The notes under the pieces: generated by a model | Seen by the model: only the letters and a program-made list of their open reading frames with translations | Database searches by the model: none | Told to the model about the DNA's origin: nothing | Position numbers and translations under genes: made by a program | Part shown: positions 17,616-42,925 of the stretch, piece by piece | Numbering within the stretch: position 1 is the first letter of the stretch | Layout of the letters: each line of letters opens with the position of its first letter | Origin: Candidatus Micrarchaeota archaeon | Lineage (GTDB): Archaea > Micrarchaeota > Micrarchaeia > Norongarragalinales > UBA8480 | Direction: 5' to 3' | NCBI GenBank assembly: GCA_964514805.1 | Contig: CAZERP010000001.1 | Location: forward strand, 5,967-57,501 | Length of the DNA stretch: 51,535 nucleotides

Positions 17616-19088
17616 ATGTCGTTTAATTTTGCAGCTAAGAATTCAAAAAGCGCTTTATTTGCAAGTTCACTACTTGTAGTTTACGTATTAATGCTACTAG
17701 TTGTATCTCCACCTAGTGGCCCGTTAGTTGATAGCGCGTACTATGCAGATATCGCTCAAAATTTACTACACAGCGGCTCTTTTAGCGCTAATTTTGAAAG
17801 TACAGTAGCGCCACCAGTATTTCCGTATGTGCTAGCTGGTTTTATGGCTGTTTTTGGAACTGCTTGGGAAAAAGCGTTCTCAGTAGTTTCTGCTGTTTTG
17901 TTAATGGCAAGTTTTTATTTACTTGCAAGGGAATTTTTTGAATCCAAGAAGTCTTTATTTTTAACTGGATTATTTGCGTTCGTTCCGATTATTTTTTACC
18001 TATCAATGGAACTTTTATCAGATGGAATTTTTGTAACTTTTACACTCCTAGCATTAAAGTTTTACTTAAAAACAATTAAAGACAAACAAACAAACGTCCT
18101 GAATGTAGCATTGCTCTCGTTATTTTCAGTACTTGCAATTCTTACTAGAACAGTAGGTATGCTATTACCAGTTATTTTTGGACTTCATTTTACCGCAAGT
18201 CGATTAATGAGTAAAGAAAAGTTATTCAAAATAGACTCAAAAGCCATTACCCTAGCTATATTCATAGTAATATGTTTAGCGTCGTTTGCTACATGGTCAA
18301 TATTAGTTAAAAGTCAAGGTAATCAAGACGCCAGTAGCACATACTTGGATAAGATTACAAACGCGCCAAGAGAAGGTCAAATAAGTTTTTCAGTAAGCGA
18401 TTTTACTAAAGGTCAAGTGAGTTTAAACGCGCCGATTTCATTTAACTTAAAAGTCCCCATATTCATAGCGTATTTGTTTAGATTAATTGTATTTCTCTTA
18501 ATTTTCATAAGCCCAGTATTAGTAATAGTTAGTTTGTGGTACATACTGAAATTAAAGTCATTTAACTCACAAGAAATTTTACTCTTAATTTTCACAATAG
18601 TAATTTGCGCATTTCACGTGTTTTGGCCACTTGCATTCTCATCAAGATACATAGCACCAGTAGTCGCGCCAATTTTGATATTAAGCGCATTAGCTTTAGA
18701 TAAAGTAAAAAACACCAAAATCGTCGCATTAGCAGTGATTGCTTTTCTTTTAATTTCAAGCGCAGTCATTTTCGTCGACGTTAACTATCGCTGGAAGGAC
18801 GCTAAAACCGCAAGCGCATTATTTTCTCAAAGTGCGTCATACATAACGCAAACAGTACCACTTAACTCTAATATTTTTGTTAGTGGCTTAGCTCAAAGTA
18901 CAGCAAGTTATTACTTTAAACGCCAAGCTCAAATTTTAAATGAAAATAACCCACAAGCAGCTAACAACATACTAGTTTCTAACTATGAAAACACAAAAGA
19001 ACCAACATTACCTACGAACATAATTAAATGTCGTGAATTTACCCAAGGTAAATACACACTAAAATTCTACTCAACAGCGTGCAAATAA
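17616..19088 (+). CDS. GT-C fold glycosyltransferase (ArnT/PMT_2 family; AglS-like Dol-P-sugar-dependent transferase)
   Basis: 490 aa with about 11-12 TM helices. The N-terminal loop PLVDSAYYADIAQNLL is typical of the ArnT/PMT_2 family. It sits adjacent to a GT2 Dol-P-sugar synthase-like gene. Confidence 0.75.
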   Translation: MSFNFAAKNSKSALFASSLLVVYVLMLLVVSPPSGPLVDSAYYADIAQNLLHSGSFSANFESTVAPPVFPYVLAGFMAVFGTAWEKAFSVVSAVLLMASFYLLAREFFESKKSLFLTGLFAFVPIIFYLSMELLSDGIFVTFTLLALKFYLKTIKDKQTNVLNVALLSLFSVLAILTRTVGMLLPVIFGLHFTASRLMSKEKLFKIDSKAITLAIFIVICLASFATWSILVKSQGNQDASSTYLDKITNAPREGQISFSVSDFTKGQVSLNAPISFNLKVPIFIAYLFRLIVFLLIFISPVLVIVSLWYILKLKSFNSQEILLLIFTIVICAFHVFWPLAFSSRYIAPVVAPILILSALALDKVKNTKIVALAVIAFLLISSAVIFVDVNYRWKDAKTASALFSQSASYITQTVPLNSNIFVSGLAQSTASYYFKRQAQILNENNPQAANNILVSNYENTKEPTLPTNIIKCREFTQGKYTLKFYSTACK

Positions 19089-19092
19089 GACC

Positions 19093-19764
19093 ATGTATAA
19101 CAAATTAAAAATCACAGCAATAGTACCTGCTTTTAATGAAGAAAAAAACATACGCAAAGTAGTCGAACAAACTGCGCCTTACGTAGACGAAGTCATAGTA
19201 GTAGACGACGGCTCTAAAGATAAAACGGGCGCAATTGCTAAAGAAAGCGGAGCAGTAGTTGCAACACACATTGTTAACATGGGCTTAGGCTTTACATTAG
19301 CAACTGGCGCTGAACTTGCCATAAAACGAGGCGCAGACGTAATAGTAACAATTGACGGAGATGGACAGCACGACCCTACTGAAATTACTCATCTCGTAAA
19401 GACACTAGTTGATGAAAAATTAGATATTGTAATTGGCGCGCGTAAGTTTGATACAAATATGCCTTTTTACAAAAAGCTTGGAAACACAACGATATATACA
19501 ATGCAACATTTACTATTTAACAGCGAAGTTAAAGACACGCAATCTGGATTTAGAGCTTTTAGATCCGAAGTGTGGCCTAAACTTAAATGGACGTCAAATA
19601 GATACGCCGTTTCATCTGAAATAGTGAAAAATATCGGCGTTAATCGTTTGAAGTTTAAAGAAGTAGAAGTTAAAACTATTTACAATGATGATTACAAAGG
19701 AACTAGTATCTTTGATGGCGCAAGAATAGTGACCACGATGATATCTTGGAAACTAAAAGGTTGA
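19093..19764 (+). CDS. GT2 glycosyltransferase (Dol-P-hexose synthase / GtrB / AglD-like)
   Basis: Motifs IVPAFNEEKNI, VVDDGSKDKT and DGDGQHDP; soluble 223 aa. Confidence 0.85.
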   Translation: MYNKLKITAIVPAFNEEKNIRKVVEQTAPYVDEVIVVDDGSKDKTGAIAKESGAVVATHIVNMGLGFTLATGAELAIKRGADVIVTIDGDGQHDPTEITHLVKTLVDEKLDIVIGARKFDTNMPFYKKLGNTTIYTMQHLLFNSEVKDTQSGFRAFRSEVWPKLKWTSNRYAVSSEIVKNIGVNRLKFKEVEVKTIYNDDYKGTSIFDGARIVTTMISWKLKG

Positions 19765-19775
19765 AAAATTATTTT

Positions 19776-20105
19776 ATGGAATTAACATACCCATTACAAA
19801 TTGCAGGCGCAGTATTTTCAGTACTCATGCTGTACTTTACTCATTACACGTACAAAAGAGGCAACTTTGGACTAAAAGATGCCTTGCTTTGGGGCGTAGT
19901 TTGGGCCTGGTTCTTATTCGCATTAGTATTTACGGATGTAATTTCTAAACTATTAATTCCACTTCACATTGTTAGCATATTTGACTTGTTAATTGCAAGC
20001 GCAGTTGGAATCATAATGCTAGTATTGATGCAATTAAACAAAAGAGTTGCTCAAATTGAAAAGAAAATTGAACAAGTAGTGCGCAAAACTGCATTCGAAA
20101 AGTGA
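19776..20105 (+). CDS. DUF2304-like small membrane protein
   Basis: About 109 aa with three TM helices and a C-terminal amphipathic QLNKRVAQIEKKIEQVV helix. This architecture and the GT2 neighbourhood are typical of DUF2304. ATG 19776 is preferred over TTG 19746. Confidence 0.6.
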   Translation: MELTYPLQIAGAVFSVLMLYFTHYTYKRGNFGLKDALLWGVVWAWFLFALVFTDVISKLLIPLHIVSIFDLLIASAVGIIMLVLMQLNKRVAQIEKKIEQVVRKTAFEK

Positions 20106-20111
20106 ATTTTG

Positions 20112-20723
20112 ATGTTTGATTTCTTAAAGTCATTCTATTACAGGTATTGGTCTGATTTTCACCCTATCCGCAGGTGGGAATGGGACGTTACACGTAAGAA
20201 TTTACAAAGAAGTAAAGTACTAGACGCAGGTTGCGGCACTGGCTCACTTACACGTAAGCTTGCTAAAATGAACTTTGACGTTAAAGCTATTGATTTAGAT
20301 TCTCAAGGTTTTGAAAACGCGAAGAAGTACAACGCATTTGCCAATGTAGAGTATAAAGCGATGCGTGTTGAAGATATTAAGTACCCAAGTGAAACCTTTG
20401 ACACAGTAATGTGTATTAGTGTAATGGGGCAATGCGACAGGACCCCCGCTTTTAATGAATTGTACCGAGTTACAAAAAAGGGCGGAGTACTTATCATAAC
20501 TTCAGCTACTAAAAATATTGACTTAATACAAATTGACCCGAGTATAAAGCAAGAGCGCTACTATTCTATGAAAAACAAGTGGGTCAGATGGTTGTTTAAC
20601 TTATTTATCAACTTTAATGATAAAAGAACGCTACTCTCAATTATATTTTACCCAATTTATTGGCTAGACACTAAATTTTCAAAAGGAACTGGCGAAATTT
20701 GCGTCCTAATAATTCGCAAGTAA
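20112..20723 (+). CDS. class I SAM-dependent methyltransferase
   Basis: Motifs VLDAGCGTGSLTRKLA, AIDLD, FDTVMCISV and KKGGVLII. The ATG at 20112 lies one codon after the TTG at 20109. Confidence 0.8.
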   Translation: MFDFLKSFYYRYWSDFHPIRRWEWDVTRKNLQRSKVLDAGCGTGSLTRKLAKMNFDVKAIDLDSQGFENAKKYNAFANVEYKAMRVEDIKYPSETFDTVMCISVMGQCDRTPAFNELYRVTKKGGVLIITSATKNIDLIQIDPSIKQERYYSMKNKWVRWLFNLFINFNDKRTLLSIIFYPIYWLDTKFSKGTGEICVLIIRK

Positions 20724-20771: not shown

Positions 20772-21617
20772 CTAGTCCTTGCTATTTGCAAGTAAATCTA
20801 TTACAGGGCCAAATTCAAAAGAGTCTAGTATCGAGTCTAGTTTTTTGAGTGATTTATCGCCTAGGTTCCAATACGTGATGAAATTAGAAAATGCGCTTTG
20901 CGTGTCGATTCTAGGCGTTTTGTCGTGTAATTCCCAAGGGTGCGCGTACATCACTGCTGGAATTCCTTTTCGGTTTAGTTGTTTTATTCCTTGCTTTATT
21001 ACCGTGTTTGGAAGCGCTCTTAAGTAAAAACCACCCGCGATAGGTACGTTTATCGCGCCTATTTTTGCAGTTGCCATTGGCACTTCGAAAAGTTTACCAT
21101 TAGCGTCGTGTTTTGCAACGTCATTTTTAGACGGCTTATACACATGCAGTGGCGCGTTTGGAACGCCATAAAGGTGTGTTTTGACGGGAAATATTGAAGA
21201 GTCGTATAAGTAGTCGTTGTTTTCTAAAATATCAAGTGCCCATTTGGTTGAATTGTTTATTGAAAAAGATGGCGCTCTAAAACCAAGTGGCTTAATTCCA
21301 ATGGTCTTTTGTATGAGTTTATCTGTTTCTAGTATTTCTTTTTCAAAACTTTTAGGGTTTAATTCATAGAGAATAGTGTGCGAGTAGCCATGACTTGCAA
21401 TTTCATGACCCGCGTCGTAAATTTTTCGTAAAACTTTCGGGCTTTTTTTAACTACATCCCCTAGTATGAAAAAAGTAGCTGTGATGTTTCTAGCATCTAG
21501 CGTATCTAGTATTGATTGTGTTGATTGTTCTACTAGTTCTACTTGCTTTGCTTGGCTTTTTCTAACTAGTTCAGCGTGATACCATTCTTCGATGTCAAAA
21601 CTAATCGCGTTTTTCAT
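20772..21617 (-). CDS. polysaccharide deacetylase, DUF3473-containing subfamily (type found in bacterial PEP-CTERM/EPS loci)
   Basis: Motifs ISFDIEEWYH, ATFFILGDV, GHEIASHGYSH, GFRAPSFSI, YDSSIFP, GGFYLRALP and YAHPWEL. Confidence 0.85.
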   Translation of the reverse strand: MKNAISFDIEEWYHAELVRKSQAKQVELVEQSTQSILDTLDARNITATFFILGDVVKKSPKVLRKIYDAGHEIASHGYSHTILYELNPKSFEKEILETDKLIQKTIGIKPLGFRAPSFSINNSTKWALDILENNDYLYDSSIFPVKTHLYGVPNAPLHVYKPSKNDVAKHDANGKLFEVPMATAKIGAINVPIAGGFYLRALPNTVIKQGIKQLNRKGIPAVMYAHPWELHDKTPRIDTQSAFSNFITYWNLGDKSLKKLDSILDSFEFGPVIDLLANSKD

Positions 21618-21621
21618 AAAA

Positions 21622-22593
21622 TTAACCTATTTGTTTAATTAGCCAAGGGCCAATCGTATTTGCAATTGGAGTGGGTAGTATTTTTGCCCATATTTGTGAG
21701 AGTTTTTTGTATTTGATTTCATCTCTTTGTTCTATTTTTTCTTTAAGGAAGTAATAGTAGTAAGGCATTTGAGTTTCTGCGCCGCCCCAGCCTTTTTTGT
21801 AAGTGAAAACGCCGGAGTTGTACCTGGTTCTTCCGAAGTCGAATTTTTCAAATCCTTGTTTTGAGAATTTAACTATCGCGTTCCAAATTAAGAACTCAAC
21901 TGCTCGTAGAGCAGCGTATTCTTTTAAGTAACAAGAATAAGCGTAATGCACTTCATGGTTATACGGTAAGAATACTGCGCCGGCGACGGGTTTGCCGTTT
22001 AGTTTGGCTAGGTGTATTTGGCAGTTTTCGCCTAGTATTTCTTTCATTTTTTTGAAGAATTTAAGTGATTGAGGTGGGCTGCCTAAGTTTTTCATCGTAG
22101 ACGCGTAGATTTTGTAAAATGCTTCAATATCCGTTTCGTTTTCTACGTTGCATAGTTCAAATCCTGATTTTTGTGATTTTGTAATGTCATTTCTTGTGCG
22201 TTTTTCCATGTTTTTTAAAACAAACGCAGGGTTAGTTATATCTAGTTTGAAAGTAACGTAGTCGTTTCTTTTTTCAAAACCGTTCTTTTCAAGCAAAACG
22301 CCCACGGCGTCTGAAGGGGTTCTTATTTCTACGTAGTTTACTTTTTCTTTTATTGCACATTCAATTATTCTTTTGGCAAGCGCATTTGCATCCGCTTTTA
22401 CGTTTATACTGCCATAGTCTGCAAAAGGTAGGGAAATTAAACGATTTGAAAATATTTTGCTGTTAACCTTTGCAAGTGAAACTGAGTTTGACCCTTCTTT
22501 TAAGTCAAATATTTTATAGTGATAAACTGCTTCAATAAACTCATTCCACTTTTTAGTACCATAGATTGAGTTAGGTTCACTTGCGTTTTTCAT
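21622..22593 (-). CDS. FemAB-family (GNAT-fold) aminoacyl-transferase-like protein
   Basis: 323 aa. Motifs LISLPFADYGS, two GNAT-like halves and YKKGWGGAE near the C-terminus. Its start is 4 nt upstream of the DUF3473 deacetylase. Confidence 0.7.
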   Translation of the reverse strand: MKNASEPNSIYGTKKWNEFIEAVYHYKIFDLKEGSNSVSLAKVNSKIFSNRLISLPFADYGSINVKADANALAKRIIECAIKEKVNYVEIRTPSDAVGVLLEKNGFEKRNDYVTFKLDITNPAFVLKNMEKRTRNDITKSQKSGFELCNVENETDIEAFYKIYASTMKNLGSPPQSLKFFKKMKEILGENCQIHLAKLNGKPVAGAVFLPYNHEVHYAYSCYLKEYAALRAVEFLIWNAIVKFSKQGFEKFDFGRTRYNSGVFTYKKGWGGAETQMPYYYYFLKEKIEQRDEIKYKKLSQIWAKILPTPIANTIGPWLIKQIG

Positions 22594-30328: not shown

Positions 30329-31387
30329 ATGATTTTTGTTCACGCGCCAGTTTTGAAAATAAAAGACTTAACGACTAAAAGTAGCGCTACTTTTGAAAAC
30401 ACGCTAAAAAGCTATAACGATAAAGATAATATTAGTTTTACAGTCGATGGTAGAAACGCGTTGTACTTAATTTTGAAGTCAATGAACTTGAAAAAAACTG
30501 ACGAAGTAATACTACCCGCGTTTACGTGTCGGGCAGTTAGAGCTGCAACTGAAGCGGTTTGTACGCCAGTTTACGCGGATGTTTTAGATGATACTTTTTG
30601 TATTTCTCCAAAAGAAGTAAAAAGTAAAATAACTAAAAAAACTAAAGCAGTAGTAGCCGTTCATTCTTTTGGAAACCCTTGCGCAATTAATAACATTTCT
30701 AAAATATGCAAAGACGCAGACGTTTCGTTAATTGAAGACTGCGCGCAATCACTAGGCGCGACGTATAACGATAAACCAGTGGGCTCTTTTGGAGATTATT
30801 CGTTCTTTAGTTTTAGATTTTCTAAAGACATAACTTCATTTACGGGCGGCGCGGCTCTAAGTAACTCAAAGCTAATCAAATACGAAGCCACTACTAGTAA
30901 GTATAGCGCTTTTGCTAAACTTGGACTCGTAAAAACAGCGTCATACTTCCCTAACTATTCAAAAAAGGCGTACAAGTACATATTTGGCGCAAAAGAATCT
31001 CAAACCTTTAGCGCTAACGAAGAGACACTTAGCGCGTTTCAACGCTCGTGCTTACAAAATCAATTCAACGCTTTTGAAAAAATTGTTGACATACGCAGAA
31101 CTAATGCCGAGATTTATAATTCTCTTCTTAAAAAAGTTCAGCTCATTAAAAGTGAAAAAGAAGCTAAGAATAGCTACTACCGCTACCCTATACTCTCAAA
31201 AAATAGAAGCGAGTTAATAGCAAAACTTACAAGTGAAGGTATTGAAACTGAAGTTATGTACCCCTACGCATTAGATGATTGTAAAGTTGCAAGTAGATTA
31301 TCTCGCGAAGTGTTAAACATTCCCGTGAATCAAAAAGTAAGCGAAGTAGACTTACAAAAAATAATCACTACTATTAATGACTTTTAA
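30329..31387 (+). CDS. DegT/DnrJ/EryC1/StrS-family PLP enzyme (divergent)
   Basis: Motifs DEVILPAFTCRAV, VVAVHSFGNPC, IEDCAQSLGA and SFRFSKDITSFTGGA (candidate PLP lysine). Confidence 0.7.
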   Translation: MIFVHAPVLKIKDLTTKSSATFENTLKSYNDKDNISFTVDGRNALYLILKSMNLKKTDEVILPAFTCRAVRAATEAVCTPVYADVLDDTFCISPKEVKSKITKKTKAVVAVHSFGNPCAINNISKICKDADVSLIEDCAQSLGATYNDKPVGSFGDYSFFSFRFSKDITSFTGGAALSNSKLIKYEATTSKYSAFAKLGLVKTASYFPNYSKKAYKYIFGAKESQTFSANEETLSAFQRSCLQNQFNAFEKIVDIRRTNAEIYNSLLKKVQLIKSEKEAKNSYYRYPILSKNRSELIAKLTSEGIETEVMYPYALDDCKVASRLSREVLNIPVNQKVSEVDLQKIITTINDF

Positions 31388-32271
31388 TCTTTAGTTAACA
31401 TAAAACCAATGTAACTTAGAACACTAAAAACTACTCTTACTATAAGCGAAGTTGCAACCACAACTTCCGCCGGCACACTAAACTGCGCAAATAAAGCTAT
31501 CATTGTAACTTCTCTTGAACCAATTCCAGCGGGTAGTCCGGATAAAAAGCCGACTAGAAGTCCAGCGGAAATAATTGAAAGGATTACTACCGGATCTAAA
31601 TTTATGCTAAAAGCTTGAAAAATTGCTTGATATGCAAAAGCTCCGAGAAATAAAGCGATAAAAGTAACTAATATAGACACGGCAAATGTTTGAAGTGATA
31701 CTGATTTTATTCCTTCTTTAAAGTCGCGTAAGTTTTTTGAAATAAAACTTAAAAATGAAGGTATTTTTGAGACGAATTTCTCAGGAACTACTAATACGAA
31801 GATGAAACCAAAGGCAATTGCAGCTACTAGTAGTATTGAAAGCGGTAGTAGCTTAGGGTCGATTTGTGAGAGTATTAGAAAAGAAAAAGCAATTGCAAAT
31901 ATGAAATCTTGAACTCTTTCAAGTATTACTACCGCTAGTGATTTTGAAACAGGTATTTTTTTAGTTTTAAATAAAGCGCTTTTAGAAACTTCACCAAGAG
32001 CAGCCACAGTCCCCTGGTTTATGAGTTGACTAAAACAAAGTACGCTAAATGCTTGCTTGAATGAAATTTCGCCGAGTTTGCGAGTTAGAATGTAAAATCT
32101 AAGCCCGTTGAGTAAAATTATTACTAGTATTACTGCCGCGCCTAAAAGTAGCATTTTGAAGTCTGCTTTTAATAACGCGTCCAATATTTTTTGTGGGCCT
32201 GCAAAGTAGATAATTGCAAGTATCAAAATTAATCCTAGTATGGATAGTATGTTTGTGAGTTTTTTATACAT
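31384..32271 (-). CDS. flippase-like membrane protein (UPF0104 / LPG_synthase_TM family)
   Basis: 295 aa with about 8 TM helices. GLPAGIGSREV near the C-terminus is typical of the family. Confidence 0.65.
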   Translation of the reverse strand: MYKKLTNILSILGLILILAIIYFAGPQKILDALLKADFKMLLLGAAVILVIILLNGLRFYILTRKLGEISFKQAFSVLCFSQLINQGTVAALGEVSKSALFKTKKIPVSKSLAVVILERVQDFIFAIAFSFLILSQIDPKLLPLSILLVAAIAFGFIFVLVVPEKFVSKIPSFLSFISKNLRDFKEGIKSVSLQTFAVSILVTFIALFLGAFAYQAIFQAFSINLDPVVILSIISAGLLVGFLSGLPAGIGSREVTMIALFAQFSVPAEVVVATSLIVRVVFSVLSYIGFMLTKD

Positions 32272-32361: not shown

Positions 32362-32895
32362 ATGCATAAAAATGTTAAAATTCATTCAACCGCGCAAGTA
32401 TCAGACCAAGCTAAAATAGGCGAAGGCACTAGTATTTGGAACTGGGCTCAAGTTCGTGAAAATTGCGAAATTGGAAAAAACTGCGTAATATCAAAAGGAG
32501 TATACATTGATACCGACGTAAAAGTTGGAGACAACTGCAAAGTCCAAAACAACGTTTCAATTTACCACGGAGTTACCATCGAAAAGGGCGTTTTCGTAGG
32601 ACCACACGTGTGTTTTACTAATGACTTACAACCCAGAGCAGTAAACCCAGACTTAAGTTTGAAAAGTGCTAGCGATTGGACTGTGAGTAAAACAGTAGTA
32701 AAAGAAGGCGCAGCGCTAGGCGCCAATAGTACAATTAGATGCGGTATTACCATAGGTAAATGGGCTATGATTGGATCAGGTAGCGTAGTTACTAAAGACG
32801 TTCCAGACTATGGCCTTGTTTACGGCAACCCAGCTAAACTACACGGATACGTAAATAAAGAAGGAAAACGAGTAAAAGAACAACCAAAAAACTAA
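32362..32895 (+). CDS. left-handed beta-helix N-acetyltransferase (WbpD/WlbB-like)
   Basis: Hexapeptide repeats IGEGTSIWNWAQVRENCEIGKNCVISKGVYIDTDVKVGDNCKVQNNVSIY; 177 aa. Confidence 0.85.
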   Translation: MHKNVKIHSTAQVSDQAKIGEGTSIWNWAQVRENCEIGKNCVISKGVYIDTDVKVGDNCKVQNNVSIYHGVTIEKGVFVGPHVCFTNDLQPRAVNPDLSLKSASDWTVSKTVVKEGAALGANSTIRCGITIGKWAMIGSGSVVTKDVPDYGLVYGNPAKLHGYVNKEGKRVKEQPKN

Positions 32896-32925
32896 AATTA
32901 TTTTTAATACGGTGAGAAAATTATT

Positions 32926-34002
32926 ATGATTAGTATTGCAGCGCCCATGGTAGGCGAAGAAGAAAAAAAGAAAGTCCTCGAAGCAATTGACAGTGGCTTT
33001 CTAACACACGGGCCATTTACTGATGAGTTCGAAAAGAAACTAGCAGAATACAGCGGCTACAAACATGCAATTGCAGTAAATAGCGGAACTGCCGCGCTAC
33101 ACGTTGCGCTCATGGCCGCGGGTTTTAATGAAAAAAGCAGAATTGCAATTCCAGACTTTTCATTTATCGCAAGCGCTAACGCAGTCAAATACATAGGCGC
33201 AACTCCCGTTTACGTAGATATTGATGAAAAAACATTCAACATGTCCCCAGAAGCGCTACGCGCAGTGCTACGAAAAGAGAAAGTTGACGCGATTATGCCT
33301 GTTTCTCTTTATGGCCAGCCATATGATGTTGATGCGATTAATGCTATTGCTAAAGAAGCAGGAATACCTGTAATTAGTGATAACTGTCAGTCAATTGGAG
33401 CAAAATGGAATGGAAAGCGCAATTTAGGCGATTTAGCTGCGTGTCTTTCATTCTACCCAACTAAGAATATGACTACCGGAGAAGGCGGCGCTATACTTAC
33501 AGACAGTGATGATTTAGCCGCTAAAGCTAAAATTATCAAAAACGTAGGAATGCGTGCTAGATATGAATACTTATACGTTGGTTTTAACTATCGTATGACT
33601 AACACTGCTGCGGCAATTGGTCTTGAACAATTAAAGAAGCTTCCTGGTTTTACTTCTACTCGTCAATCTAACGCGAGTAAACTAAACGCGCTACTACGCG
33701 AAGTTAAAGAAGTTCAAACTCCGTATTGCGATGCTAAGGCAGAGCACGTCTACCACCAATACACGATTAAAGCTAAGGACCGTGATGGGCTTAAAGCGCA
33801 CTTAGAAAAGTTAGGAATTGGATGCGCGGTTTACTACCCCGCGCCGTTGCACACTATAGGCGTCTTAAAAGCAGGCGCGGTTAACTGCCCAGTTACTGAA
33901 AAAGTAGGCCGTGAAGTTTTATCACTTCCAGTACACCCTAAGTTAACTACTAGTAATTTAGAGGAAATAGCAAACGCGATTAAATCTTTTTATAAGGTTT
34001 AA
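32926..34002 (+). CDS. DegT-family sugar aminotransferase (WbpE-like)
   Basis: Motifs NSGTAALHVAL, SDNCQSIGA and SFYPTKNMTTGEGGAI (PLP lysine). GGTGAG lies upstream. Confidence 0.9.
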   Translation: MISIAAPMVGEEEKKKVLEAIDSGFLTHGPFTDEFEKKLAEYSGYKHAIAVNSGTAALHVALMAAGFNEKSRIAIPDFSFIASANAVKYIGATPVYVDIDEKTFNMSPEALRAVLRKEKVDAIMPVSLYGQPYDVDAINAIAKEAGIPVISDNCQSIGAKWNGKRNLGDLAACLSFYPTKNMTTGEGGAILTDSDDLAAKAKIIKNVGMRARYEYLYVGFNYRMTNTAAAIGLEQLKKLPGFTSTRQSNASKLNALLREVKEVQTPYCDAKAEHVYHQYTIKAKDRDGLKAHLEKLGIGCAVYYPAPLHTIGVLKAGAVNCPVTEKVGREVLSLPVHPKLTTSNLEEIANAIKSFYKV

Positions 34003-34988
34003 AAGTTTATTTTTTCCATTTTGCCGCTTTGCGCAGATTGCGCGGCGGCTTCCACAGCAGCTAGCGCGAGTAGTCCATCGTTTGTTGTTACTATTGGCTC
34101 TTCTCCGTTTTGAACGCAGTCTAAAAAGTGACTTAGTTCGACTTTGAGTGGCTCGTCTTTTGTAAAGTATGGCTTGTATTCTGCGCCTTTGCCCATGATT
34201 GTGACTATTTCGTCAAATGAGCTGAATTTGGATGGAATGTCTTCGGATGTTATTATTCGTAAGTCTTGAGTTACGTAGTCTAGTTTGGCAATGCCTTTAG
34301 TTCCAAGGATGATTAAGTCCCTGTTTTTAACTTTACTTACTCGGTTGGATTCTATTGTGGCCATAAATTCGCCGTAGTCAAATATTGCAGTGCAAAGGTC
34401 TGCGCTGTCTTTTTCTAGTATTTTCTTTTCTCTTGCCATTACTTGTTTTGGTGTTGAACCAGTTAAGTATACTAAAACGTCTACGTCGTGTACTGCTTGA
34501 TCTATGAAAGCAGATCCTACTTTTCTAGTCGTAGGTACGCCGAATCGGTGTACTGATGCGTAGAATATTTCTCCTAGCATATGAATGTTTTTCTTTAATG
34601 CTTGAACTGCGGGGTTGAAGCGTTCGATGTGTCCTACGGTTACGAAGACTTTGTGTTTGGCTGCTAGTTCTTGGAGTTTTTTGCCTTCATCTACTGTATT
34701 AGTAATTGGTTTTTCGATTAGGAAGGGTATTTTCTTTTCAATTAGTTCGACTGCTACTTTATAGTGTAAAGCGGTTGGGACTATGACGCTTGCCGCGTTT
34801 ATTTTGGTTAGGTCTACGTCTGAGAGTTTTTCTGCTACTGTGACTTTTTTGAAGTTAGCGTCAAGTACTCTTTTACGATTTTGCGCATCTGGTTCTACTA
34901 CGGTTATGTTTTTTACTTGTTTTAATTGTGAAAAAGTTCTAACGTGGTTAAAACCCATTAATCCGGCTCCGATTACTAATACGTGCAT
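33999..34988 (-). CDS. Gfo/Idh/MocA-family NAD-dependent sugar oxidoreductase (WbpB-like)
   Basis: Rossmann N-terminus VLVIGAGLMGFNH and EKP motif FLIEKPI; 329 aa. Confidence 0.85.
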   Translation of the reverse strand: MHVLVIGAGLMGFNHVRTFSQLKQVKNITVVEPDAQNRKRVLDANFKKVTVAEKLSDVDLTKINAASVIVPTALHYKVAVELIEKKIPFLIEKPITNTVDEGKKLQELAAKHKVFVTVGHIERFNPAVQALKKNIHMLGEIFYASVHRFGVPTTRKVGSAFIDQAVHDVDVLVYLTGSTPKQVMAREKKILEKDSADLCTAIFDYGEFMATIESNRVSKVKNRDLIILGTKGIAKLDYVTQDLRIITSEDIPSKFSSFDEIVTIMGKGAEYKPYFTKDEPLKVELSHFLDCVQNGEEPIVTTNDGLLALAAVEAAAQSAQSGKMEKINF

Positions 34989-37260: not shown

Positions 37261-37923
37261 ATGGATTTTAAGATTGATTTTCACGTACATACAAGTAAAT
37301 CTTTTGATAGCATAGCAGATGTAAAGTCAGTTGTTCGAATAGCTAAAAGTAAAGGACTTGACGCGATTTGTGTAACCGATCATGATGTTTACACTGAATT
37401 TGAAAATCTTGACTTGACTGTTTTTCGCGGTTGTGAAATTACTACAGATGCAGGAGATCTGCTTGGAGTTTTTATTAAAAGTCCAGTTAAAAGTGGCAAA
37501 TGGCAAGATGTTATTCAGCAAGTTCATAAGCAAGGCGGGCTAGTAATACTACCGCACCCGTATAATCATCATACGCTAAGTGCGGAACTTATTAGACGCG
37601 TTGACGCGATTGAAGTGTATAATTCAAGAGTAAAACCGGAATTAAACAAAAAAGCATTCGAATTAGCTAAAAAATACGACAAACCCACAGTAGCAAGTAG
37701 CGATGCTCATTTTGCAAGCGACGTAGGCAACTCATACACAGTTGTTGACTCTAAGTCGCTTAAAGAAAATGACGTTAAAAACGCGCTCTTAAAAAATAAA
37801 ACCAAAACACACTACCGCGCGTCCAATCGTAACAAAATTCACATTAATCGCGCAATTAAACTAGTTAAATTAAGACAATTCAATAAAATTTTGCCGTTTA
37901 TTAAAAAAAAGATTTTAAACTAA
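37261..37923 (+). CDS. PHP-domain metal-dependent phosphoesterase (TrpH/YciV-like)
   Basis: Motifs DFHVHTSKS, AICVTDHD, LPHPY and SSDAH. The ATG directly abuts the ATP-grasp stop. Confidence 0.8.
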   Translation: MDFKIDFHVHTSKSFDSIADVKSVVRIAKSKGLDAICVTDHDVYTEFENLDLTVFRGCEITTDAGDLLGVFIKSPVKSGKWQDVIQQVHKQGGLVILPHPYNHHTLSAELIRRVDAIEVYNSRVKPELNKKAFELAKKYDKPTVASSDAHFASDVGNSYTVVDSKSLKENDVKNALLKNKTKTHYRASNRNKIHINRAIKLVKLRQFNKILPFIKKKILN

Positions 37924-40105: not shown

Positions 40106-42925
40106 TTAAGGCTTTTGGTATTCAAAAATCTTAACTTCACCAGTTGGAGATGTGTAAACTAGTTTGTAGCCCGGTAAGTTGTTAAAGAAGTATAACCTAA
40201 CGTAAGCTGAGTCTAGAATTGCACTCGATTTGTTAACTAGTCTAAAGTCTGGGTTGGCGTTGATTAGAGATTGCTGTGATACTGGTAGCAAGTAAGACAT
40301 ATTTGCGTCTACGACAGTCTTGTTTTGTGATTGTAGTGATATTATTGAAAAGTCTCTTGCTAAGTCTGATCTCAAACCAGAATTGTCTATTGGTATGATT
40401 TGATTTTGGTTTAGACAGTATGAAAGTCCAAAGCTGCTTTGCGCAAGGGTTAGTCCTTGTGCGAATGGGCATTGTTGGTTAACCAAGTTGATTGTTTCAA
40501 AGTAGTGGAATAGTTCGTATTCGCTTGAACCTGCTCCTTTTTGCCAGTCTTGGATACTTGGTTGGTTTGGACACGCAGGTAGCTCTATTGGGATGTAGTC
40601 TACTGGTCCTTTTTGACATGTTCCAGATAAGTATACTAACGCGCCCCATTTTTGAATGAGTTCGAAGTCTACGAGTACGTGAGTTGCTTGGTGGTAGTCC
40701 ATAGCGTATTTTAAGTCGTTTGCGTCATCTACGAATCCGTGTGCTACTTGGTGATCGAAGTATGCTCTACTGTTTGTTGGGTCGAGTACGGTTTTGGTTT
40801 CTCCAAGGAACATAGTCCAGTGGCCGTAGTCCCACCAGCTCATTACTCTACAAGAGTGTCCGAATTTAGCTTGGCAGTTGCTTTCGGTTTCTGGGTTTAA
40901 GTAACTGGTGTTATTCTTTAGCCATTGCATTGCAAGTAGCCAGTCTTTTGAAATGGTTGATTGCTTTAAGCCATTAGCCGTAGTTAGCGCGCCGTTGAAT
41001 GCTCCGGTTGCGCCGGTTGCTTGCACTATTCCTGCAAGGCCTCCGAGTAGTAATGTGAATGCAATTACAAATGTTGTAACATGAGTTGAGTTTGTAGTGT
41101 GTTTGAATAGTTTGACTTCGCTGCCTATTTTTTCTAATACTCTTGCAAGTTCAGCAAGTAGTACAGGTAATGCAAATGCGAGTACGATTGCCAAGTGTAG
41201 TATGAATTTGATTTTGTTAAGTCCAATGAATGCTACTGGAAATATTATTAGTACACTTAGGAGTTGATAGTGGACTGAGTCGTTGTCTTTGAGGTTTAAA
41301 GCCGCGACTAGTAGTATTGAAATGATTGATATTATGAACGGCGCGAATACTGGGCTTTGTGTGAAGCTTTCCATTCCAACGCTAAGTGATGCACTGAGAA
41401 GTGAGGCGACTTGGGATGCAAATAAGCTCAACAGTATACATAGTATTGCGTATCCGGCTGCGTTTTTGTATTCTTTTCTTGAAGTAAAAGCATGGACTGC
41501 CCATAATGCAAATGCTAGTGCAAGGCCGTTGAATAGAACGTATGGGTTTAGTACTCCGAATGCACTTGCGAATACTCCTTCAAAAGTTGGGTTTTCTTCT
41601 GCGATTGTGTTACTTAGTGGCGCTCCGTTTTTAGCGATTTTTGCATAGTTAGAAAATAAGCCAAATGGACTTGTGCCGCCAGGTAGTATTGGTAGTAAAC
41701 TAAATACAAGGAAGATTAGTACTAGTACGCCTAGGAATTTGGTTTTGCCCATTGCTTTGACTTGAGGTAATTTGTTTAACGCAAATAGTATTACGCTTGG
41801 TATTAGTGATAGTGCAAATAGTATTGAGACTATTGGGAATCCAATAGTAGGTTCATACGCGCCTAGTATTGCACCTGCGAGTAAGCCGCTGAGTGCAAAT
41901 ATTGCGTTAATTATGATTTTCTTTTCAGTTAGTTTTTCGGTTAAGAAGTCAATTATTGTTGATAGTAGGAAGTATCCTGCGAATACTGCAAATGGCCAGA
42001 TGTATTGTTGTCCTCCAAGTAATGCGGCGGCAGTTACTACTCCTCCGATGAGTGCGAATCTGTAGCTTTGTCTTTTAGTTGCAAGTACGTAAAGTGCAAA
42101 CATTGCAAATGCACTATAGACTCCCCATGGTTGTAATTCAGATACTCCTGATGCGAATTTTTGGATGATTTGTGGCGTGAATGCCATGAATACTGCGCCT
42201 ATTACTCCTGCAGTTTCATCGTATTGTTCTTTTAGAAGCCAGTATGCTACGATTGATAGCATTGCGCCTACGACTGGGGGGTAGATGTTTGAAATTAGGA
42301 TTAAAGTTCCTTTGTCGAAGGCAGTTCCGCTGAATAGTTGGTGTAGTAGCGTCCATGATCCGGTTAAGTATTGAACTAAAGGATGTGTCCTAAATATTTC
42401 TCCAACGGGAAAATAGCTGATATCTAGTGTGTGAGGTACTTGTCCGAATCTAATTAAGAATTCGGTTAACATGTTGTAGTAGTAAGGGTCAAATTCGAAG
42501 AAGCTTGTTGATAGAGGAATTATTTTTATTAGAAAACTTGCAATTGCAATAAGTGCGACTACGATAATTGGCGCGTTTTTTGGAAGGGTTTTTGGGTTAA
42601 ATGTTTTAATTTCTTTGATTTTGTTTTTAACCGCTGCCATTGCATCGCCTTGAATTGCATACGCAGCAATTCCGAGTATAGTTAGAAGCACGACGTTTGC
42701 TAATATCATAGTCGTGTCAAATTTAAGTCCTATTAAGAAGTACTCTAAAAATAGCGCTAGTGGTACTGCTATTAGTGACATTGCAAATGATAGTAGTAGT
42801 TTGTCGGAAAAGTTTGCGCCAGTTTTACGCAAAGCGGCAAATGTTAAACTTGCAGCTGGAATAAACATTAAGATAAAAGACGCTAAAAGCGCAAATGCGT
42901 TAATCATAAGAAAAAAACTATACAA
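40106..42925 (-). CDS. aglB: oligosaccharyltransferase AglB (STT3 family)
   Basis: About 13 TM helices followed by a large soluble domain. It has the WWDYGHW catalytic motif and an EFDPYYY first-loop acidic motif. ORF-track start 42925 is a TTG; the first ATG is at 42907 (MINAF). Confidence 0.9.
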   Translation of the reverse strand: MYSFFLMINAFALLASFILMFIPAASLTFAALRKTGANFSDKLLLSFAMSLIAVPLALFLEYFLIGLKFDTTMILANVVLLTILGIAAYAIQGDAMAAVKNKIKEIKTFNPKTLPKNAPIIVVALIAIASFLIKIIPLSTSFFEFDPYYYNMLTEFLIRFGQVPHTLDISYFPVGEIFRTHPLVQYLTGSWTLLHQLFSGTAFDKGTLILISNIYPPVVGAMLSIVAYWLLKEQYDETAGVIGAVFMAFTPQIIQKFASGVSELQPWGVYSAFAMFALYVLATKRQSYRFALIGGVVTAAALLGGQQYIWPFAVFAGYFLLSTIIDFLTEKLTEKKIIINAIFALSGLLAGAILGAYEPTIGFPIVSILFALSLIPSVILFALNKLPQVKAMGKTKFLGVLVLIFLVFSLLPILPGGTSPFGLFSNYAKIAKNGAPLSNTIAEENPTFEGVFASAFGVLNPYVLFNGLALAFALWAVHAFTSRKEYKNAAGYAILCILLSLFASQVASLLSASLSVGMESFTQSPVFAPFIISIISILLVAALNLKDNDSVHYQLLSVLIIFPVAFIGLNKIKFILHLAIVLAFALPVLLAELARVLEKIGSEVKLFKHTTNSTHVTTFVIAFTLLLGGLAGIVQATGATGAFNGALTTANGLKQSTISKDWLLAMQWLKNNTSYLNPETESNCQAKFGHSCRVMSWWDYGHWTMFLGETKTVLDPTNSRAYFDHQVAHGFVDDANDLKYAMDYHQATHVLVDFELIQKWGALVYLSGTCQKGPVDYIPIELPACPNQPSIQDWQKGAGSSEYELFHYFETINLVNQQCPFAQGLTLAQSSFGLSYCLNQNQIIPIDNSGLRSDLARDFSIISLQSQNKTVVDANMSYLLPVSQQSLINANPDFRLVNKSSAILDSAYVRLYFFNNLPGYKLVYTSPTGEVKIFEYQKP

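What the first reader, a model, noticed from the sequence alone, without database searches (positions are those of the whole stretch)
20772..22593. FemAB-like aminoacyl-transferase plus DUF3473 deacetylase pair (hallmark of bacterial PEP-CTERM/exosortase EPS loci) in an archaeal N-glycosylation island
Seen in sequence. Two minus-strand genes lie 4 nt apart. One is a CE4 deacetylase with the full DUF3473-type motif series (FDIEEWYH, ATFFILGDV, GHEIASHGYSH, GFRAPSFSI, YDSSIFP, GGFYLRALP, YAHPWEL). The other is a 323-aa FemAB-family protein (LISLPFADYGS, YKKGWGGAE).

Established knowledge. This exact pairing was defined as PEP-CTERM-locus-associated subfamilies in bacteria, and its substrate is still unknown. 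Fem-family enzymes use aminoacyl-tRNA to acylate amines.

Inference. Deacetylation of an N-acetyl-hexosamine could expose an amine that is then aminoacylated from a charged tRNA. That would give an amino-acid-decorated archaeal glycan. No exosortase or archaeosortase is visible in the window, so the pair is uncoupled from its usual bacterial context, which suggests lateral acquisition.
Basis: partly seen in the sequence, partly recalled or inferred. Interest (0 to 1): 0.6.

Follow-up and report, generated by a model that had tools for sequence, protein, structure and literature searches.

The report
Archaeal sugar deacetylase plus tRNA-type aminoacyl transferase
Two tightly linked genes in a tiny wastewater archaeon most likely strip the acetyl group from a surface amino sugar and replace it with an amino acid taken from a charged tRNA; this chemistry is known genetically from one bacterial pathway but has not been described in archaea.

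Summary
A 323-aa Fem-type gene and a 281-aa CE4/DUF3473 deacetylase gene lie 4 nt apart on the minus strand, and every quoted motif is present.

Both proteins match TIGR03019 and TIGR03006 over their full length but score below the cut-offs. In the tree they fall in a mostly archaeal clade (plus Dehalococcoidia) that is sister to the exosortase-linked bacterial pair.

The pairing holds across DPANN, Thermoproteota, Bathyarchaeia, Hydrothermarchaeota and Chloroflexota. The two domains are fused into one protein in at least four separate cases.

The Fem-like protein models with confidence as a FemX-type double GNAT. Its nearest solved structures are all aminoacyl-tRNA-dependent transferases, and it keeps the aromatic-Lys catalytic dyad.

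New here, the pair's conserved neighbours are a PpgS/GacI-like polyprenyl-phosphate sugar synthase, its DUF2304 partner, a GT-C transferase and an MprF-type flippase. These point to editing of a dolichyl-phosphate-HexNAc carrier.

There is no linkage to an archaeosortase and no sign of recent transfer from bacteria.

The parts
21622..22593 (-). Fem-type (FemX-like double-GNAT) transferase, 323 aa; predicted aminoacyl-tRNA-dependent N-aminoacyl transferase
   Evidence: TIGR03019 179.2 bits, below cut-off. PF13480, PF02388 and PF04339 all pass. AF2 model pLDDT 92.9. Foldseek ranks 1-26 are all aa-tRNA-dependent transferases. Invariant K266, preceded by Y265, aligns with FemX F304-K305.
20772..21617 (-). 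CE4 (NodB) + DUF3473 de-N-acetylase, 281 aa, no signal peptide; starts 4 nt after the Fem stop codon
   Evidence: TIGR03006 249.1 bits, below cut-off. PF01522 and PF11959 pass. Invariant D8, E10, H76, H80, R114, H226. AF2 model pLDDT 90.3; fold nearest 3rxz, HpPgdA and PuuE, with ArnD at TM 0.60.
19093..19764 (+). GT2 polyprenyl-phosphate sugar synthase (PpgS/GacI/AglJ-like), 223 aa; proposed maker of Dol-P-HexNAc
   Evidence: Best NCBIfam hit PpgS, 127.7 bits, full length, below cut-off. PDB relatives are Dol-P-Man synthase and ArnC. The same GT2 type lies next to the pair in 8 of 8 other lineages tested.
19746..20105 (+). DUF2304 small three-TM protein (GacJ/Rv3632-like activator of the GT2)
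   Evidence: PF10066 47 bits, above 25.5. The role of GacJ and Rv3632 is taken from bioRxiv 10.1101/180810. Conserved in L006.
17616..19088 (+). PMT_2-type GT-C glycosyltransferase (ArnT/GacL-like), 490 aa; proposed extracellular transfer of the edited sugar
   Evidence: PF13231 41.3 bits, above 26.1. Conserved beside the pair in L006 and L009, and as GT-C genes of about 900 aa in the Aminicenantes loci.
31384..32271 (-). LPG_synthase_TM (MprF-type) flippase-like membrane protein; candidate flippase for the aminoacylated lipid-linked sugar
   Evidence: PF03706 116 bits; TIGR00374. Homologs lie near Fem in L005, L006 and L007 and directly upstream of Fem in L019. Fused to a Fem domain in P0241.
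20109..20723 (+). SAM methyltransferase, last gene of the PMT_2-GT2-DUF2304 operon, convergent on the pair; role unknown
   Evidence: PF08241 68.5 bits. No counterpart at this position in L006.
32362..34988 (.). WbpD/WbpE/WbpB-like trio (hexapeptide acetyltransferase +, DegT aminotransferase +, UDP-GlcNAc 3-dehydrogenase -): alternative source of the substrate, a 2,3-diacetamido sugar
   Evidence: Conserved in L005, L006 and L009. No WbpA-type dehydrogenase in the genome.
40106..42925 (-). AglB/STT3 oligosaccharyltransferase; marks the region as an N-glycosylation island
   Evidence: PF02516 45.7 bits and PF22627 27.5 bits; TIGR04154 95 bits, below cut-off. Single copy in the genome.

Best explanation
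The two genes form a co-transcribed, cytoplasmic 'swap acetyl for amino acid' cassette. The CE4/DUF3473 enzyme removes the N-acetyl group from an amino sugar. The FemX-like enzyme then transfers an amino acid from an aminoacyl-tRNA onto the freed amine, forming an amide. The product is an N-aminoacyl hexosamine that ends up on the cell-surface glycan. The favoured carrier (about 0.45) is dolichyl-phosphate-HexNAc, in five steps: (1) the neighbouring PpgS/GacI-like GT2 and its DUF2304 partner make Dol-P-HexNAc; (2) the deacetylase removes the acetyl group; (3) the Fem-like enzyme adds the amino acid; (4) the MprF-type flippase-like protein flips the lipid-linked sugar; (5) the PMT_2 GT-C enzyme transfers it outside the cell. 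Shown: gene anatomy, family and fold, conserved pairing, fusions, conserved neighbours. Inferred: donor, acceptor, carrier and which amino acid.
For: Coupling: 4-nt gap; adjacency in about 21 loci across at least 6 phyla; broadly congruent Fem and deacetylase trees; single-ORF fusions in L013 (617 aa), P0225 and P0157, plus a fusion to a different CE4 in P0189. aa-tRNA donor: profile hits in the PDB are FemX, FmhB, Sbb17/Sba18 and FemA. Foldseek ranks 1-26 are all aa-tRNA-dependent enzymes; the best TM (0.70, rmsd 3.0) is Sbb17/Sba18, solved with the amino-sugar substrate streptothrisamine, while acetyl-CoA tandem GNATs reach only TM 0.4-0.47. Invariant K266 with Y/F265 aligns with the catalytic Lys305 and tRNA-contacting Phe304 of FemX. 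Genetic precedent: swapping vimA changes Ser to Gly on the C-2 amine (PMC7468200). Active deacetylase: invariant D8/E10, H76/H80, R114, H226. Cytoplasmic: neither protein has an N-terminal signal or TM segment. Lipid carrier: the convergent PMT_2/GT2/DUF2304 operon has the same layout in L006 and L009. The GT2 beside the pair is a polyprenyl-P sugar synthase type in 8 of 8 lineages. An Aminicenantes clade shows GT2-Fem-(deacetylase)-GT-C. The LPG_synthase_TM flippase lies near Fem in all four members of the window's subclade, is adjacent in L019, and is fused to Fem in P0241.
Against: There is no biochemistry for any member of this clade, and the donor of VimA itself has not been shown in the literature I could reach. 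All specific family matches (PpgS, TIGR03006, TIGR03019) are below cut-off, so the sugar is not identified. If the GT2 makes Dol-P-hexose, as AglJ does, there is no acetyl group to remove. In P. gingivalis the finished sugar is thought to be transferred by VimF, which implies a nucleotide-sugar substrate, and the island also has WbpB/E/D-like genes. The deacetylase fold does not favour ArnD over the soluble PuuE/HpPgdA-type enzymes. No dedicated tRNA or aaRS was found.
Confidence: 0.55

Rival explanations
1. Same chemistry on a soluble nucleotide sugar, as in Wbp/Vim. The WbpB/WbpE/WbpD-like enzymes of the island make a UDP-2,3-diacetamido-2,3-dideoxy-hexose. The pair replaces its 2-N-acetyl group with an amino acid, and a GT4 enzyme builds the product into the dolichol-linked N-glycan that AglB transfers.
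For: The VimE/VimA precedent and the proposed VimF transfer of the finished sugar. A WbpB-like, DegT and hexapeptide acetyltransferase trio is in the island and is conserved in L005, L006 and L009. DegT genes lie near the pair in 9 of 20 loci, and GT4 genes flank it in the Thermoproteota loci. AglB is in the island. An AsnB (WbpS-like) gene is present.
Against: No WbpA-type UDP-sugar 6-dehydrogenase in the genome, which is only 78% complete. AsnB scores 370 against a cut-off of 817 for the WbpS-type model TIGR03108. The Dehalococcoidia pair loci have the GT2 but no Wbp-like genes within reach. The flippase-Fem fusion P0241 and the adjacency in L019 argue for a lipid substrate.
Confidence: 0.3
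2. An N-acyl swap that does not use tRNA. The Fem-like protein is a GNAT that uses an acyl-CoA or acyl-ACP donor to re-acylate the deacetylated amine with a group other than an amino acid.
For: The best Pfam hit is Acetyltransf_6, a GNAT family, and NCBI names many homologs 'GNAT family N-acetyltransferase'. No donor has been shown for any TIGR03019-like protein.
Against: Acetyl-CoA tandem GNATs appear only from Foldseek rank 27, with TM 0.4-0.47 against 0.64-0.70 for aa-tRNA enzymes. The aromatic-Lys dyad of Fem transferases is invariant. The vimA swap changes the amino acid that is incorporated. No acyl-carrier or fatty-acid genes lie beside the pair here.
Confidence: 0.13
3. Sortase handle. 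The aminoacyl sugar supplies a free alpha-amine that the genome's archaeosortase-family enzyme uses as the nucleophile to anchor surface proteins. This would parallel PorU and the T9SS linking sugar, and the role proposed for exosortase.
For: T9SS cargo is amide-bonded to the seryl or glycyl sugar made by VimE/VimA. In bacteria the pair sits about 1 kb from the exosortase (L035, L059). The window's genome has an archaeosortase-family gene (TIGR04178, 42 bits) and about 8 secreted proteins with a C-terminal TM helix and a basic tail.
Against: 9 of 20 pair-bearing genomes have no exosortase or archaeosortase domain, including all five Thermoproteota. In every archaeal or Chloroflexota case the sortase gene is on another contig or about 200 kb away. 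Here it lies next to CarS, which fits a lipid nucleophile better. No shared sorting motif was found and PGF-CTERM scored only 13 bits.
Confidence: 0.08

Closest known systems
VimE / VimA of the Wbp/Vim pathway (Porphyromonas gingivalis, Tannerella forsythia; PMC7468200, PMC13086638)
   Same: A CE4 deacetylase gene lies next to a transferase that matches TIGR03019. The proposed order is de-N-acetylation, then amino-acid transfer to the freed sugar amine. An AsnB-type amidotransferase (WbpS) and WbpB/E/D genes are associated with it.
   Different: It is bacterial and feeds T9SS cargo anchoring. Its substrate is a 2,3-diamino uronic acid, whereas this genome shows no WbpA. The finished sugar is thought to be moved by the cytoplasmic GT VimF. 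I could not compare sequences directly, because no VimA or VimE sequence was available to me. The neighbours here point to a Dol-P carrier.
TIGR03019 / TIGR03006, the XrtA/PEP-CTERM-associated FemAB-family protein and polysaccharide deacetylase
   Same: These are the best and full-length HMM matches for both proteins. The pairing is the same and the deacetylase has the same DUF3473 tail.
   Different: Scores are below the curated cut-offs (179 vs 260; 249 vs 276). The window's proteins fall in a sister clade. There is no exosortase linkage and no PEP-CTERM proteins were detected.
FemX of Weissella viridescens and the FemXAB family (PDB 1ne9, 4ii9, 6snr, 1lrz)
   Same: A double-GNAT fold (TM 0.64), no coiled-coil arm (as in FemX), and an aromatic-Lys catalytic/tRNA-contact dyad.
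   Different: The acceptor there is the Lys epsilon-amine of a peptidoglycan precursor. Identity is only about 14%. FemX is not paired with a deacetylase.
Sbb17 / Sba18 / Orf11, aminoacyl-tRNA-dependent peptide synthases of streptothricin-type antibiotics (PDB 9wqw, 9wqx, 9wqy; PMC12945691)
   Same: They are the best structural match (TM 0.70, rmsd 3.0 A). They aminoacylate an amine on an amino-sugar-containing molecule (streptothrisamine) from Gly-tRNA.
   Different: They belong to Streptomyces secondary metabolism, are shorter (about 290 aa), and have no lipid carrier and no deacetylase partner.
Three-component lipid-carrier glycosylation: GacI/GacJ/GacL, PpgS/Rv3632/Rv3779, ArnC/ArnD/ArnT
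   Same: A GT2 polyprenyl-P sugar synthase, a DUF2304 activator and a GT-C transferase. In the Arn system a CE4 enzyme (ArnD) edits the N-acyl group of the lipid-linked sugar before it is flipped.
   Different: None of these systems adds an amino acid. The carrier here would be dolichol in an archaeon. All matches to the specific families are below cut-off.
MprF (aminoacyl-phosphatidylglycerol synthase fused to a flippase)
   Same: A Fem-like double-GNAT domain that uses aa-tRNA on a lipid substrate, combined with an LPG_synthase_TM flippase. Here the two are separate genes; in relative P0241 they are fused.
   Different: MprF forms an ester on the glycerol of PG, not an amide on a sugar amine. 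Its synthase domain belongs to DUF2156, not PF13480/PF02388.

Membership tests
TIGR03019 FemAB family XrtA/PEP-CTERM system-associated protein (equivalog) | HMM score at or above the curated cut-off (260.35 bits) | tested here: not met
   179.2 bits over positions 13-330 of 330. Archaeal-clade relatives score 140-203. Only the exosortase-adjacent L035 passes, at 434.
TIGR03019 FemAB family XrtA/PEP-CTERM system-associated protein (equivalog) | Genomic association with an XrtA exosortase and PEP-CTERM proteins | tested here: not met
   The only exosortase/archaeosortase-family gene is on contig C16, not C1. The PEP-CTERM search found nothing, but its controls were silent too. The protein falls in a sister clade to the exosortase-adjacent proteins.
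TIGR03006 XrtA system polysaccharide deacetylase (equivalog) | HMM score at or above the curated cut-off (276.2 bits) | tested here: not met
   249.1 bits over positions 1-271 of 272.
CE4 / NodB deacetylases with a DUF3473 tail (PF01522 + PF11959) | Both Pfam domains above gathering score, and the catalytic and metal-binding residues present | tested here: met
   PF01522 88.0 bits and PF11959 113.3 bits. D8, E10, H76, H80, R114 and H226 are invariant across 16-22 homologs.
Fem aminoacyl-tRNA-dependent transferases (PF02388; FemX fold) | Pfam FemAB above gathering score and a double-GNAT fold | tested here: met
   PF02388 48.1 bits, above 24. The AF2 model (pLDDT 92.9) matches FemX at TM 0.64, Sbb17 at 0.70 and FemA at 0.63.
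Fem aminoacyl-tRNA-dependent transferases (PF02388; FemX fold) | Catalytic Lys (FemX K305) preceded by the conserved aromatic residue (F304) | tested here: met
   K266 is invariant in 22 sequences, and Y265 (F in the clade consensus) precedes it. The profile alignment places them on FemX F304-K305. The roles of these residues come from PMC12945691 and PMC9723616.
Fem aminoacyl-tRNA-dependent transferases (PF02388; FemX fold) | Use of aminoacyl-tRNA as the donor | not testable with these tools
   This needs an in vitro assay. No dedicated tRNA or aaRS was found in the genome.
Wbp/Vim pathway (VimE + VimA) | A CE4 deacetylase adjacent to a TIGR03019-like transferase | tested here: met
   That VimA matches TIGR03019 and VimE is a CE4 enzyme comes from PMC7468200. 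Direct sequence comparison with VimA or VimE was not possible.
Wbp/Vim pathway (VimE + VimA) | A complete WbpA/B/E/D route to a 2,3-diacetamido uronic acid | tested here: not met
   WbpB-, WbpE- and WbpD-like genes are present, but PF03721 (WbpA-type dehydrogenase) is absent from the genome, which is only 78% complete.
Three-component lipid-carrier glycosylation (GacI/GacJ/GacL type) | A GT2 polyprenyl-phosphate HexNAc synthase | tested here: inconclusive
   The best match is PpgS at 127.7 bits, below the 370 cut-off, followed by AglJ at 93. PDB relatives are Dol-P-Man synthase and ArnC. The sugar specificity is not determined.
Three-component lipid-carrier glycosylation (GacI/GacJ/GacL type) | A DUF2304 partner and a GT-C transferase in the same operon | tested here: met
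   PF10066 47 bits, above 25.5. PMT_2 41.3 bits, above 26.1. The genes overlap or abut at 17616-20105.

The most novel reading that the evidence does not exclude
The pair belongs to a self-contained five-step dolichyl-phosphate sugar-editing pathway: (1) a PpgS/GacI-like synthase with its DUF2304 partner; (2) the CE4/DUF3473 de-N-acetylase; (3) the FemX-like aminoacyl-tRNA transferase; (4) an MprF-type flippase; (5) a GT-C transferase. It would place an N-aminoacyl hexosamine on the archaeal cell surface. That would be the first tRNA-dependent glycan modification in Archaea and a previously undescribed use of aminoacyl-tRNA on a polyprenyl-phosphate sugar. The free alpha-amine might also serve as an anchoring point for surface proteins.
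Probability: 0.3. Interest if true: 0.75.

Novelty: new variant of a known kind. Interest (0 to 1): 0.5.

Why it matters
Aminoacyl-tRNA use outside translation is known for peptidoglycan bridges, lipid aminoacylation (MprF), protein N-end tagging and a few antibiotics. For sugars, the only evidence is genetic and comes from one bacterial pathway, Wbp/Vim.

This locus gives three things:
- The cassette exists as a distinct clade across many archaeal phyla and has no link to any sortase.
- Repeated natural fusions show that the deacetylase and the transferase work on the same molecule.
- The conserved neighbours give a concrete hypothesis about the carrier that can be tested at the bench, namely a polyprenyl-phosphate HexNAc.

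If confirmed, this would add a new class of archaeal surface-glycan decoration: a cationic or zwitterionic aminoacyl sugar. That is relevant to DPANN-host contact and to virus receptors. It would also give the large, unassigned TIGR03006/TIGR03019 family a function.

Tried and rejected
1. Membership in the XrtA/PEP-CTERM equivalogs: rejected, because both scores are below cut-off, the proteins sit in a sister clade, and there is no exosortase linkage.

2. Recent transfer from a bacterial donor: rejected. The nearest relatives are DPANN archaea, the island is collinear with L006/G001, and GC/GC3 is native.

3. A dedicated tRNA or aaRS: none. The aaRS at 5960-7282 is one of two ordinary class-IIb paralogs, and all 32 tRNAs are single copy.

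4. Sorting signals: the PGF-CTERM model gave only 13.3 bits. The PEP-CTERM search was uninformative because the controls were silent. My own scan found about 8 C-terminally anchored secreted proteins with no common motif.

5. Using the deacetylase fold to choose the carrier: ArnD (TM 0.60) is no better than the soluble PuuE/HpPgdA-type enzymes (0.60-0.63).

6. A full Wbp uronic-acid route: no WbpA-type dehydrogenase was found.

7. Direct sequence comparison with VimA and VimE: not possible, because no sequence was held in the accessible collections and I did not write one from memory.

9. The iterative GT2 HMM became generic, with 75 hits, so I relied on ORF length and NCBIfam best hits instead.
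Full report
OBSERVATION

The Fem-like gene is at 21622-22593 (-) and encodes 323 aa. The deacetylase gene is at 20772-21617 (-) and encodes 281 aa. Every quoted motif is in the translations. The junction reads TAA-TTTT-ATG, a 4-nt gap, so the genes are almost certainly co-transcribed. Two TTTAAATA boxes lie upstream of the Fem start.

- TIGR03006: 249.1 bits, positions 1-271 of 272, cut-off 276.2.
- TIGR03019: 179.2 bits, positions 13-330 of 330, cut-off 260.35.
- Pfam DUF3473, Polysacc_deac_1, Acetyltransf_6, FemAB and FemAB_like all pass their gathering scores.

The named families are therefore the best and full-length matches, but neither protein reaches equivalog level.

ORGANISM AND CONTEXT

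The window is C1:5967-57501 of a 0.9-Mb MAG that is 78% complete. The genome is archaeal: it has a CarS gene (181 bits).

The second genome of the phylum that holds the gene is G001:C2:17954-18943. By coordinates this is the contig of locus L006, Candidatus Micrarchaeota archaeon CG1_02_51_15. It belongs to the same GTDB family as the window's genome, so the organism is a Micrarchaeota (DPANN). This agrees with earlier notes.

The pair sits in a glycan island of about 36 kb, running from an AglH-like initiating GT4 at 7393 to GalU at 43894. The island holds:
- AglB/STT3, three GT4 genes and a Wzx-like flippase;
- WecB and an AsnB-type amidotransferase;
- a WbpB/WbpE/WbpD-like trio;
- CysDN with phosphatase-fold enzymes;
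- an ATP-grasp/PHP pair;
- an LPG_synthase_TM flippase-like gene.

IS THE PAIRING REAL?

A pattern scan of one genome per prokaryotic species returned 80 loci with Fem-like genes. A DUF3473 deacetylase lies on the same strand, 8-240 nt away, in 19 of them, and within 900 nt in 2 more. These loci come from Nanohaloarchaea, Micrarchaeota, Hydrothermarchaeota, Methanobacterium, Methanomicrobiales, Bathyarchaeia, Thermoproteales/Thermofilaceae, Dehalococcoidia, Thermodesulfobacteriota and Gammaproteobacteria. The more distant Fem-like genes of Acidobacteriota and Ktedonobacteria lack the deacetylase.

The Fem tree and the deacetylase tree recover the same groups, so the two genes move as a unit.

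Natural fusions exist:
- L013 encodes one 617-aa ORF with DUF3473 deacetylase and Fem domains.
- A scan of 1.84 billion representative proteins found P0225 (NodB + DUF3473 + Fem) and P0157 (DUF3473 + Fem).
- It also found P0189, in which a different CE4 deacetylase is fused to Fem.

This is strong evidence that both enzymes act on one molecule.

RELATION TO THE PEP-CTERM PAIR

In the Fem tree the window falls in a 21-row clade (SH-aLRT 96) made of archaea plus Dehalococcoidia. Its nearest neighbours are Nanohaloarchaea, an uncultured archaeon and Micrarchaeota.

The Thermodesulfobacteriota/Pseudomonadota proteins form a separate sister clade. Only L035, from that clade, clears the TIGR03019 cut-off at 434 bits; archaeal-clade proteins score 140-203.

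An exosortase/archaeosortase domain (TIGR04178) is found in only 11 of 20 pair-bearing genomes. It is absent from all five Thermoproteota, from the Methanobacterium and from two Dehalococcoidia. These are MAGs, so absence is not proof.

Contig lengths show the sortase gene lies about 1 kb from the pair only in the bacterial loci L059 and L035. In every archaeal or Chloroflexota case it is on another contig, or about 200 kb away in Hydrothermarchaeum.

The window's genome has one small archaeosortase-family gene (167 aa). It scores 42 bits on TIGR04178, above the cut-off of 23, and its closest specific model is 'pacearchaeosortase' at 41 bits, below 80. It lies on contig C16 directly downstream of CarS. 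PGF-CTERM scored 13 bits. The PEP-CTERM search was uninformative. About 8 C-terminally anchored secreted proteins share no motif.

The pair is therefore not a conventional sortase-linked locus.

LATERAL ACQUISITION?

The gene is very patchy:
- 2 of 12 genomes of the family;
- no close homolog in 29 further genomes of the order, though two of them (G014, G021) hold distant Fem-like genes of about 50 bits;
- 2 of 301 genomes of the phylum;
- 1 of 81 Methanobacteriaceae;
- 3 of 4 in a Thermofilaceae-type family.

On the other hand, the island is collinear with that of the same-family genome L006. The pair's GC (0.36-0.38) and GC3 match the neighbours and the genome (0.39). The nearest relatives are archaeal. 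So this is an old, mobile accessory module within an archaeal/Chloroflexota pool, not a recent import from PEP-CTERM bacteria.

The Methanobacterium fusion nests among Dehalococcoidia sequences, so that contig is either a transfer or mis-binned.

MECHANISM: THE TRANSFERASE

The AF2 model is confident (pLDDT 92.9, pTM 0.90).

Foldseek ranks 1-26 are all aminoacyl-tRNA-dependent enzymes:
- FemX, TM 0.64;
- Sbb17/Sba18, TM 0.70 and rmsd 3.0, solved with the amino-sugar substrate streptothrisamine;
- MprF and other aa-PG synthases, about 0.6;
- FemA, 0.63.

Acetyl-CoA tandem GNATs follow only from rank 27, at TM 0.4-0.47.

The sequence profile finds the same proteins. It places the invariant K266, preceded by Y265 (F in the clade consensus), on FemX F304-K305. 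K305 is the catalytic residue. F304 is described as 'conserved in all Fem transferases' and contacts the C75 ribose of the tRNA (PMC12945691; PMC9723616).

There is no FemA-type coiled-coil arm.

MECHANISM: THE DEACETYLASE

The family keeps D8, E10, H76, H80, R114 and H226 invariant. The model (pLDDT 90.3) belongs to the cytoplasmic PuuE/HpPgdA-like branch of CE4, with ArnD equally close at TM 0.60.

Neither protein has a signal peptide or a TM segment. An aa-tRNA donor also requires the cytoplasm. The chemistry therefore happens on the cytoplasmic side.

WHAT IS ALREADY KNOWN

Veith et al. 2020 (PMC7468200) showed that T9SS cargo is amide-bonded to 2-N-seryl-3-N-acetylglucuronamide in P. gingivalis and to 2-N-glycyl-3-N-acetylmannuronic acid in T. 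forsythia. Exchanging vimA changes Ser to Gly. VimA matches TIGR03019, and VimE is a CE4 enzyme proposed to remove the 2-N-acetyl group.

The authors had already speculated that the PEP-CTERM FemAB proteins make amino-acid-modified sugars. They also noted vimA-vimE pairs in bacteria that lack an exosortase.

The amino-acid donor has not been shown biochemically in the papers I could reach. No paper in the library links Fem-type enzymes to archaeal glycosylation.

WHICH CARRIER?

This is the part that is new here.

Convergent on the pair is an operon of three genes:
- a PMT_2 GT-C enzyme;
- a 223-aa GT2, whose best family is the mycobacterial polyprenyl-P-GalNAc synthase PpgS (128 bits, full length, below cut-off) and whose solved relatives are Dol-P-Man synthase and ArnC;
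- a DUF2304 protein.

DUF2304 proteins (GacJ, Rv3632) are activators of the HexNAc-P-polyprenol synthases GacI and PpgS, and a GT-C enzyme (GacL) then transfers the sugar outside the cell (bioRxiv 10.1101/180810).

The same convergent layout occurs in L006 and L009. The GT2 beside the pair is of the polyprenyl-phosphate sugar synthase type in 8 of 8 other lineages tested: PpgS is best in 6, ArnC/PgfS in one and AglJ in one. An Aminicenantes clade shows the order GT2, Fem, (deacetylase), GT-C.

An MprF-type flippase domain (LPG_synthase_TM) is encoded in the island. It lies near Fem in all four members of the window's subclade, directly upstream of Fem in L019, and fused to a Fem domain in P0241. 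That fusion has the architecture of MprF, which aminoacylates a lipid and then flips it.

Together these suggest the following path:
1. Dol-P-HexNAc is made.
2. It is de-N-acetylated to Dol-P-HexN.
3. It is aminoacylated to Dol-P-HexN-aminoacyl.
4. It is flipped across the membrane.
5. The GT-C enzyme transfers the sugar outside the cell.

The logic parallels ArnC/ArnD/ArnT, with an added tRNA-dependent step.

The main alternative is a nucleotide-sugar substrate, as in Wbp/Vim, supplied by the WbpB/E/D-like genes. It cannot be excluded, although no WbpA-type dehydrogenase is present.

VERDICT

This is a distinct, sortase-independent archaeal/Chloroflexota variant of a known but biochemically uncharacterised cassette. 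The chemistry is well supported. The carrier hypothesis is new, testable and only moderately supported.

My estimates:
- the two genes are functionally coupled: 0.95;
- the acceptor is a de-N-acetylated amino sugar: 0.75;
- the donor is aminoacyl-tRNA: 0.7;
- the carrier is Dol-P-HexNAc: 0.45.

Noticed in passing
G000:C16:16325-16828 (L001:1624-2127), with CarS at L001:1096-1617: A 167-aa archaeosortase-family protein (IPDCTG Cys, NLLRL Arg, ELIHL His; TIGR04178 42 bits) lies 7 nt downstream of CDP-archaeol synthase. This linkage would fit a lipid-derived nucleophile for the sortase, and it lies about 400 bp from the contig end.
   Followed up: partly
L013:9119-10972: A single 617-aa ORF fuses the DUF3473 deacetylase to the Fem-like domain in a MAG labelled Methanobacterium. 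Its Fem part nests among Dehalococcoidia sequences and no other of 80 Methanobacteriaceae genomes has the gene, so the contig is either a transfer or mis-binned.
   Followed up: partly
P0241 (639 aa), P0189 (688 aa), P0225 (647 aa), P0157 (526 aa), from the representative library: P0241 fuses an MprF-type LPG_synthase_TM flippase domain to a Fem-like domain. P0189 fuses a CE4 deacetylase without DUF3473 to Fem. P0225 and P0157 are further DUF3473-Fem fusions. Their genomic contexts were not examined.
   Followed up: partly
window:36025-37923: An ATP-grasp ligase and a PHP-family metallohydrolase abut (stop at 37260, start at 37261). In L030 (Methanomicrobiales) the same two genes lie directly upstream of the deacetylase-Fem pair. 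Homologs of the ATP-grasp gene occur in 16 of 60 loci with distant Fem-like genes. This may be a second, ATP-dependent amide-forming route in the same island.
   Followed up: no
window:37915-38958 (-): A 347-aa ORF with no Pfam or NCBIfam match has tblastn homologs in 16 of the 60 Fem loci that lack the deacetylase (mostly Acidobacteriota) and in none of the 20 pair loci. It is a conserved unknown that travels with the other branch of the Fem-like family.
   Followed up: no
window:9611-11098 (+): The Wzx-like flippase reading frame is open for 495 aa from 9611 but has no ATG, GTG or TTG before 9995. Either it uses a non-canonical start codon or the N-terminal third is not translated.
   Followed up: partly
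window:8420-9592 (+): A second, divergent CE4-like protein (390 aa; NodB domain only at residues 123-203, weak ArnD-like hit) follows the AglH-like initiating enzyme. It is conserved in the L006 island (207 bits).
   Followed up: no
window:12044-15220: A block of NTP-transferase, AsnB-type amidotransferase and CDP-alcohol phosphatidyltransferase (archaetidylinositol-phosphate-synthase-like) has no counterpart in the otherwise collinear L006 island. AsnB has no obvious uronic-acid substrate, because the genome shows no UDP-sugar 6-dehydrogenase.
   Followed up: partly
L055, L063, L069, L078, L079, L072 (Aminicenantes and relatives): A bacterial clade has the fixed order short PpgS-like GT2, Fem-like gene, GT-C of about 900 aa. 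The DUF3473 deacetylase lies between them only in L072. The others may act on a sugar that already carries a free amine.
   Followed up: no
G000, several contigs (e.g. C11:21786-25118, C4:15960-18734, C14:20160-22295, C2:32792-34027): About eight large secreted proteins end in a hydrophobic helix followed by a Lys-rich tail. They share no PGF- or PEP-like motif. They are candidate clients of the small archaeosortase.
   Followed up: partly
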